Below are positions 15,909 through 16,363 of a stretch of DNA of 64,000 nt, one piece after another. The position numbers and the translations under genes are program-made. The DNA comes from Eledone cirrhosa. Lineage: Eukaryota. The notes below the pieces were generated by a model that made no database searches, was not told where the DNA came from, and saw only the letters and a program-made list of their open reading frames with translations. The stretch lies in assembly GCA_964016885.1 (NCBI GenBank), contig OZ024750.1, positions 22,258,001 through 22,322,000 on the forward strand, given 5' to 3'. Each line of letters opens with the position of its first letter. Within the stretch, counting starts at the first letter, position 1.

Positions 15909-16360
15909 AAGTTTTATTTAAATTGTTGGGTTACAACGAGTAAATATTTATAACTGATATAAAAGCACTCAACAAGTATTTGGAGTATATTTACGATATT
16001 AAATAAATGGAAACTATATTTATAAAACCATATTTATTTCATTATACATATTTCAGGGATATCATATTAAAAATATGTTATGCCTTCCTCAGACAAAATA
16101 CAATATAAACAGTCTTATAAATAGATAGATTTGACATACCTTTCAACTTCAACTTCCATTTAAAAAGTTGATTTGGTACCAAATCAACTTTTTAAATGGA
16201 AGTTGAAGTTGAAAGGTATGTCAAATCTATCTATTTATAAGACTGTTTATATTGTATTTTATCTGAGGAAGGCATAACATATTTTTAATATGATATCCCT
16301 GAAATATGTATAATGAAATAAATATGGTTTTATAAATATAGTTTCCATTTATTTAATATC

Positions 16361-16363
<3 letters not shown>
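15906..16363 (-). mobile_element. Fold-back Penelope-like element end, copy 3
   Basis: 372-bp spacerless palindrome 15992-16363 centred on GGTACC (16175-16180), one mismatch seen; tail on the left (15906-15991); (TA)n flanks. Confidence 0.78.
16035..16100 (-). ncRNA. Minimal type I hammerhead ribozyme motif (sense to POLR3B pre-mRNA)
   Basis: UAUUUUGU CUGAGGA [AGGCAUAACAUAUU-UUU-AAUAUGAUAUCCCU] GAAA UAUGUA UA^AUGAAAUA; mirror copy on plus strand at 16255-16320. Confidence 0.75.

What the first reader, a model, noticed from the sequence alone, without database searches (positions are those of the whole stretch)
15992..16363. Spacerless 372-bp palindrome that always transcribes the antisense before the ribozyme
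Seen: a near-perfect palindrome (one mismatch) centred on GGTACC in the intron between exons 15 and 16. On either strand the antisense arm is read first and the hammerhead second. Inference: the ~185-bp hairpin would sequester the ribozyme, making an intronic insertion harmless to the essential POLR3B pre-mRNA. It would also create a long dsRNA suited to ADAR editing or Dicer, and editing could unmask the ribozyme. Arms are nearly identical within a copy but differ between copies, which points to fold-back synthesis at insertion or ongoing arm homogenisation.
Basis: partly seen in the sequence, partly recalled or inferred. Interest (0 to 1): 0.72.

Follow-up and report, generated by a model that had tools for sequence, protein, structure and literature searches.

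The report
Penelope mirror stump in POLR3B intron
This mirror-image DNA is a short stump of a common jumping gene (a Penelope-like element), one of hundreds in this genome, likely made by joining two DNA copies of the front of the element's RNA head to head, so the predicted hiding of its ribozyme in a hairpin is likely a by-product rather than a safety switch.

Summary
The palindrome is real: 15992-16363, no spacer, one mismatch. Each arm is the hammerhead-bearing terminal repeat (pLTR) of a young Penelope-like element whose 742-aa ORF carries the Hydra-clade motifs. The genome holds at least 9,383 such ends, 387 near-spacerless palindromes and 27 identical junctions. 'Antisense first' is the family's normal head-to-head geometry (30 pairs against 1 tail-to-tail), at any size from 0.2 to 5 kb. 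Masking is predicted by folding, but nothing shows it is needed: such minimal hammerheads are reported inactive as monomers, and simulated editing never freed the core. Arm identity does not depend on spacer length, and either arm can be the longer one (26 vs 25). This favours two cDNAs primed at both ends of one cut, running off the RNA 5' end. No read crossed the junction, and no RNA was examined. This scan has reported the same architecture and mechanism many times, in this genome and in others.

The parts
15859..15905 (.). (TA)n tract, left part of the insertion target
   Evidence: sequence; 78 of 79 tailed arms end in ATATAT
15906..15991 (-). 86-nt one-sided tail: family sequence between the pLTR end and the ORF start
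   Evidence: continues into the ORF in full-length copy L049; on exactly one arm in 79 of 87 pairs
15992..16177 (-). tailed pLTR arm, sense in the POLR3B pre-mRNA
16035..16100 (-). minimal type I hammerhead, predicted cut 16043/16042
   Evidence: activity untested
16134..16139 (-). splice-donor-like GTATGT about 41 nt after the inferred RNA start (mirror copy at 16216-16221, +)
   Evidence: GGTA(T/C)GT kept across subfamilies; the D. virilis intron lies 46 nt after its start (PMC2377424); use is inferred
16175..16180 (.). head-to-head junction GGTACC; both arms overlap at a TA next to the inferred RNA start
   Evidence: family upstream sequence; 27 identical junctions in the genome
16178..16363 (+). 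untailed pLTR arm, antisense in the pre-mRNA and transcribed first
16255..16320 (+). minimal type I hammerhead, predicted cut 16312/16313
16362..16391 (.). (TA)n tract, right part of the target
15668..15757 (-). POLR3B second-to-last exon, 148 nt downstream of the insert
   Evidence: Pfam Rpb2_7 E 1.1e-5, below the curated cut-off on this 41-aa piece; splice sites
17718..17855 (-). POLR3B exon upstream of the host intron (matched part)
   Evidence: PF00562 E 5.4e-16; translation

Best explanation
The palindrome is a minimal, non-coding insertion of a Hydra-type Penelope-like retrotransposon, made of two copies of its hammerhead-bearing front end joined head to head in a (TA)n tract, likely by two reverse transcriptions of one RNA. 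Inferred steps: the GIY-YIG nuclease cuts (TA)n on both strands. One DNA end primes on the unspliced sense RNA at the pLTR end (+186, a TA match), the other at the tail end (+272, an ATATAT match). Both cDNAs run to the RNA 5' end at the A of TCACT (-3) and join through 2 nt of TA microhomology. Because the two 5' ends meet in the middle, any read-through transcript makes the antisense arm first and is predicted to zip up the ribozyme. That masking is a by-product, and the insert is likely a neutral passenger in the POLR3B intron that may be edited by ADAR.
For: Shown: the arm and tail lie directly before 747-750-codon open frames and again after them. The ORF has RWR, DKT, YRDD, CxCx5C, a GIY-YIG-like motif, CxxC-E and N-CxH. 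At least 9,383 pLTR ends, 387 near-spacerless palindromes and 27 identical junctions. Among the first 100 ends there are 30 head-to-head pairs against 1 tail-to-tail, sized 183-5,096 bp. One tail in 79 of 87 pairs, with both outer ends in TA. Of 96 arms, 36 stop between -3 and +12 and 17 of those at -3 to -1; only 4 stop between -6 and -29, two of which are a divergent subfamily. Untailed arm longer in 26, tailed in 25, equal in 27, unresolved in 1 of 79. Arms match in subfamily, median 1 difference in both the up-to-400-bp and the over-1-kb class. In Anolis, reverse transcription starts at two internal RNA sites that bound the tail, and both DNA strands are cut and extended (PMC11167929).
Against: No RNA was examined, so the RNA start, the template strand and the intron are inferred from copy ends. 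Random arm asymmetry could also come from later deletions at the centre of a fold-back product (recalled for long mammalian palindromes). Five 'tailed longer' cases reflect internal duplications, and the pair sample is enriched for palindromes I selected (25 loci). The 5'-end survey sees only arms that keep +12 to +30. No read or contig crossed the centre. PMC3846280 prefers self-priming on an antisense template. Target-site duplication cannot be read inside (TA)n.
Confidence: 0.68

Rival explanations
1. One cDNA (or an antisense RNA) folds back at its 3' end and primes its own second strand; the nuclease then trims one side and leaves the tail.
For: It explains near-identical arms and mirrored rare variants (14). 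No clear case of arms from two subfamilies among 80 pairs. Perfect centres at a self-complementary TA or AGT/ACT occur.
Against: The overhang should then sit on one kind of arm, but it is 26 against 25. Several inserts have an inverted part that is only tail sequence absent from the other arm (L007; L196). Spacers reach kilobases.
Confidence: 0.2
2. The palindrome is kept by selection as a safety catch: the antisense arm silences a ribozyme that would otherwise cut POLR3B pre-mRNA, and A-to-I editing can release it.
For: The hairpin is predicted to bury the core fully. The hammerhead is under structural constraint in the family. In none of the four family inserts in this window does the host-gene strand carry a complete hammerhead without an antisense arm ahead of it.
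Against: The geometry is family-wide. The monomer fold is not predicted and is reported inactive for this class (PMC4209133). Simulated editing freed the core in 0 of 20 runs even at 50%, where five core A residues survive only 3% of the time. The copy is young (98-99% identical to relatives).
Confidence: 0.05
3. The arms are kept alike after insertion by conversion through the DNA hairpin.
For: Rare variants are mirrored in both arms.
Against: Identity is the same for arms over 1 kb apart. Single-arm changes (89) outnumber mirrored ones (14). An older palindrome in the window has unrepaired arm differences.
Confidence: 0.04
4. The palindrome is a fold-back artefact of sequencing or assembly.
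For: Depth was zero beyond 16180 in 4 of 4 runs; reads reaching the centre went on into the element's normal upstream sequence (789 and 988 reads in two raw runs).
Against: The flanks are unique and not mirrored, the tail is on one side only (24 of 24 complete copies), arms differ by 0-4 changes, and POLR3B exons run in order on both sides. Strand-switch joints at other family positions recur in raw reads of 2-3 individuals. The raw runs are reduced-representation libraries, and perfect hairpins are lost in PCR-based libraries (recalled).
Confidence: 0.03

Closest known systems
Hydra clade of C-terminal EN+ Penelope-like elements (PMC8557442; passages and section 11 read)
   Same: C-terminal GIY-YIG-like domain, RW[K/R], DKT, CxCx5C linker, CxxC and CxH around E and N, hammerhead, (TA)n targeting, inverted 5'-truncated copy with one-sided tail
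   Different: RWR instead of RWK; unit about 3.9 kb against 'generally <3 kb'; tail 86 nt against 30-40 nt; no tree was built
Adineta vaga Pen2a/Pen3 inverted-pLTR inserts (PMC3846280; passages and Discussion read)
   Same: head-to-head inverted pLTRs, palindrome at the junction, optional tail, TATA-like plus TCACT initiator-like motif
   Different: here the insert is reduced to two pLTRs with no ORF, occurs in hundreds, and shows no readable target-site duplication; that paper proposes antisense self-priming
Anolis Poseidon PAc in vitro system (PMC11167929; parts 1-2 of 4 read)
   Same: two internal start sites of reverse transcription bounding the tail; AT-rich target; hammerhead in the pLTR
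   Different: different clade; there the ORF starts inside the hammerhead and priming needs no homology, whereas here the ATG lies beyond the tail and both ends share TA with the target
Minimal hammerheads of metazoan PLEs (PMC4209133; parts 1-2 of 4 read)
   Same: long helix II, 2-bp helix III with a self-complementary loop, dual motifs 100-700 bp apart on opposite strands already noted
   Different: helix I is 8 bp here against 4-5 bp
Animal non-LTR retrozymes (bioRxiv 10.64898/2026.07.22.740005; passages read)
   Same: non-coding, hammerhead-bearing, PLE-derived
   Different: retrozymes are tandem direct repeats; this is one inverted pair with one hammerhead per strand

Membership tests
EN+ Penelope-like element | pLTR flanking one ORF with RT then GIY-YIG endonuclease | tested here: met
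   arm plus tail precede and follow 747-750-codon frames; YRDD and GIY-YIG-like motif; Atlas neighbours at 0.96-0.98 carry PF26215 and PF01541 in 24-99% of members. Pfam and PDB searches themselves gave no significant hit.
EN+ Penelope-like element | inverted 5'-truncated copy with a tail at one end | tested here: met
   79 of 87 pairs have exactly one tail
EN+ Penelope-like element | spliceosomal intron near the 5' end, retained in copies | tested here: inconclusive
   conserved donor-like motif at +39; no RNA examined
Hydra clade | RWK, DKT, CxCx5C, CxxC/CxH motifs; no CX2-5CxxC finger | tested here: met
   RWR at 37, DKT at 118, CxCx5C at 601, CxxCxxE at 699, N-CxH at 721, no CX2-5CxxC (one copy, L049)
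Hydra clade | insertion into (TA)n | tested here: met
   75 of 79 untailed and 78 of 79 tailed ends
Hydra clade | phylogenetic placement of the RT | not tested
   no reference Hydra sequences were fetched
Type I minimal hammerhead | CUGANGA/GAAA/UH core with three helices and covariation | tested here: met
   95.7% of cells paired, 9 of 19 pairs with changes on both sides, 0 of 500 shuffles as high for score; the core was required by my selection pattern, so its invariance is no test; Rfam gathering score not reached
Type I minimal hammerhead | self-cleavage | not testable with these tools
   needs an assay; monomer fold not predicted
Non-LTR retrozyme | tandem direct hammerhead repeats giving RNA circles | tested here: not met
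   one hammerhead per strand, inverted
MITE (DNA transposon) | symmetric terminal inverted repeats and fixed size | tested here: not met
   asymmetric ends, sizes 0.2-5 kb, arms belong to an RT element

The most novel reading that the evidence does not exclude
These stumps are a fossil record of the Penelope replication cycle: both ends of one staggered (TA)n cut prime on a single unspliced sense RNA at two fixed sites 86 nt apart, both cDNAs run off the RNA's 5' end at TCACT, and they anneal there. This would settle the template-strand question left open in PMC3846280 and give the promoter and both priming sites of a Hydra-clade element to the base.
Probability: 0.55. Interest if true: 0.5.

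Novelty: new member of a known kind. Interest (0 to 1): 0.3.

Why it matters
As a locus it is ordinary: one of hundreds of like stumps, with no sign of a role for POLR3B. As a family it offers a clean handle on a question the field calls open, namely how Penelope-like elements build inverted ends and which RNA strand they copy (PMC3846280, PMC8557442). It is a young family with intact-looking ORFs and base-precise priming and run-off points. The inserts would also place perfect double-stranded RNA of about 185 bp in introns, a likely but untested source of editing substrates.

Tried and rejected
Rfam at gathering score: 0 hits in the window. Pfam and PDB searches with the ORF: nothing significant. 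Run search: no RNA holder listed, so expression, editing, small RNAs and cleavage ends were not examined. Reads laid on one arm plus tail and on the centre: no joint at 16177 and no depth beyond 16180. This is inconclusive because X7-X9 are reduced-representation libraries and X1 and X4 are contigs. Fossil ADAR edits: both arms carry G at +90 and +131 where most close relatives have A. That 51-nt haplotype occurs in 4 of 751 arms, but locus L003/L016 has both G residues in both arms and differs by one shared base, and both states are common in sister subfamilies. Mirrored private changes were A>G 4 and T>C 4 of 14. Rejected as unneeded. Pattern counts 2,425 / 1,481 / 585 across the inferred start were not used as proof, because subfamilies differ upstream. 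Seven high-difference pairs were checked: six are truncations or duplications, and one (L184) has only one matching arm. Literature searches listed no paper that applies twin priming to Penelope inverted ends or describes antisense masking of their hammerheads; I saw listings only for most hits, and subscription journals are not covered. Supplements of PMC8557442, which may list this family, were not read.

Full report
Observation. Each strand carries a type I hammerhead in its second arm, with predicted cuts at 16312/16313 (+) and 16043/16042 (-). An alignment of 21 distinct family hammerheads pairs in 95.7% of cells, with changes on both sides in 9 of 19 pairs; the core letters were part of my selection pattern. 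Rfam does not reach gathering score. The host gene is POLR3B on the minus strand. The insert lies in its second-to-last intron, 148 nt before the exon at 15757-15668.

What it belongs to. A genome search with one arm gave 1,656 candidates, of which 40 were scored, at 98-99% identity for the best. The left arm continues into an 86-nt sequence shared with many copies, and both ends meet (TA)n, so the insert is 15906-16363. Of 12 long open frames fetched, 11 have arm sequence behind the frame and 9 have arm or tail sequence before it. The 742-aa ORF of L049 has RWR, DKT, YRDD, CxCx5C, a GIY-YIG-like motif and CxxC/CxH around E and N. These are the marks listed for the Hydra clade, which also targets (TA)n (PMC8557442, section 11). 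Atlas neighbours agree; Pfam and PDB gave nothing. No tree was built.

How common. There are 9,383 exact pLTR 3' ends, 387 head-to-head joins with a gap of at most 30 nt near the pLTR start, and 27 matches of the identical junction at 26 loci. I read all 26: 24 have both arms complete, and each of those has the tail on exactly one arm. Among the first 100 ends on one chromosome, 30 pairs are head-to-head, 1 tail-to-tail and 1 tandem within 6.5 kb, sized 183-5,096 bp. Three older relatives with the same plan lie in this window. Inverted pLTRs with a palindromic junction and a one-sided tail are described for Penelope elements (PMC3846280; PMC8557442), and dual opposite-strand hammerheads were noted in PMC4209133. 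'Antisense first' is therefore the family's geometry and no special feature of this copy.

How it forms (inferred). Of 96 arms in an order-based sample, 17 stop at -3 to -1 and 19 at +2 to +12. The other 60 run further upstream, and only 4 stop between -6 and -29, two being a divergent subfamily. The wall at -3 is the A of TCACT, about 25 nt after a TATA-like word and about 41 nt before a conserved donor-like motif. A TCACT initiator-like word is described in Adineta and an intron 46 nt after the start in D. virilis (PMC2377424). I read this as the RNA 5' end. The outer ends are fixed at +186 and about +272, matching the two internal start sites that bound the tail in Anolis, where both DNA strands are cut and extended (PMC11167929). 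In 79 one-tail pairs the untailed arm is longer in 26, the tailed in 25, equal in 27 and unresolved in 1, and some inverted parts are tail only. Two independently ending cDNAs fit this better than a one-way fold-back, although later central deletions could blur the test. Arms differ by a mean of 1.08 against 9.1 between loci. The partner is the nearest or tied-nearest arm in 35 of 48 cases, and the median difference is 1 for inserts up to 400 bp and for those over 1 kb. That points to joint birth from one RNA, not later homogenisation. The term twin priming is recalled from L1 work and was also used in earlier notes of this scan.

In the pre-mRNA the core is predicted to be fully paired, so masking is likely physically true. 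But the hammerhead fold is worth only about -3 kcal/mol and is not favoured even in a lone arm; its helix III loop is self-complementary, as in dimer-dependent motifs. Such motifs showed no monomer cleavage (PMC4209133), and the Anolis one needed protein and was dispensable for insertion. Treating up to 50% of A residues as unpairable, which is harsher than inosine, freed the core in 0 of 20 folds at each level. Editing is more likely to destroy the core than to release it. A test for selection needs a gene annotation and was not possible. The idea that the two A-to-G differences of this copy are fossil edits was tested and not supported.

Against my reading. No read or contig crossed the centre in four runs, and reads reaching it continued into normal upstream sequence. 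Strand-switch joints were seen only at other positions. The libraries are ill suited to this test, and the one-sided tail, unique flanks and ordered exons argue against an artefact, but direct confirmation is missing. All statements on RNA are inferred from DNA.

Verdict. A new member of a known kind: a minimal Hydra-type Penelope insertion. The locus is ordinary; the family's end statistics bear on an open mechanistic question, and I found no paper stating this mechanism for Penelope elements. The scan has already noted it repeatedly: 603 findings in at least 49 genomes fit the words and 1,154 notes in this genome; these are unchecked notes and no support. Papers seen: PMC11167929 and PMC4209133, parts 1-2 of 4; PMC3846280, passages and Discussion; PMC8557442, passages and section 11; PMC2377424, PMC13282606 and bioRxiv 10.64898/2026.07.22.740005, passages; others as listings only; no supplements. 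Interest 0.3.

Noticed in passing
window 44644-45107, 1133-1990, 14031-14390: Three older relatives with the same plan (TA tract, untailed arm, tailed arm, TA tract): a palindrome with a 1-nt spacer, a pair of 329-nt arms around a CT repeat, and an asymmetric pair whose only complete hammerhead is antisense to POLR3B.
   Followed up: partly
L066, L074, L076, L082, L110, L116, L068, L070; counter-example L242: Internal duplications fall in the tailed arm in 8 inserts and in the untailed arm in 1, hinting that the two arms are synthesised differently.
   Followed up: partly
L028, L152, L244, L115, L141, L164, L156, L008 and others: A second cluster of arm lengths at about 330-380 nt, inside the CT-rich tract upstream of the pLTR; it may be a pause site, a second start or an alignment effect.
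   Followed up: no
G000: 61 tiny palindromes are centred near the predicted hammerhead cut; 5 of the 50 listed have both arms starting at the cut with a 2-nt overlap. This is a weak hint of cleavage in vivo, and microhomology explains it as well.
   Followed up: partly
window 16134-16139 (-): The element's donor-like GTATGT is in sense in the POLR3B intron and would also be buried in the hairpin, so masking may matter more for splicing than for cleavage.
   Followed up: no
window 992-1022 (-), 18216-18239 (-), 10664-10687 (-), 3586-3609 (-): Other CUGANGA...GAAA motifs from unrelated sequence; the one at 18216-18239 is in sense within a POLR3B intron with a weak helix I.
   Followed up: no
L032:682-974 and L021:1205-1267: A palindrome of a different hammerhead subfamily sits directly beside a long inverted insert, sharing its TA tract.
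   Followed up: no
   Followed up: no
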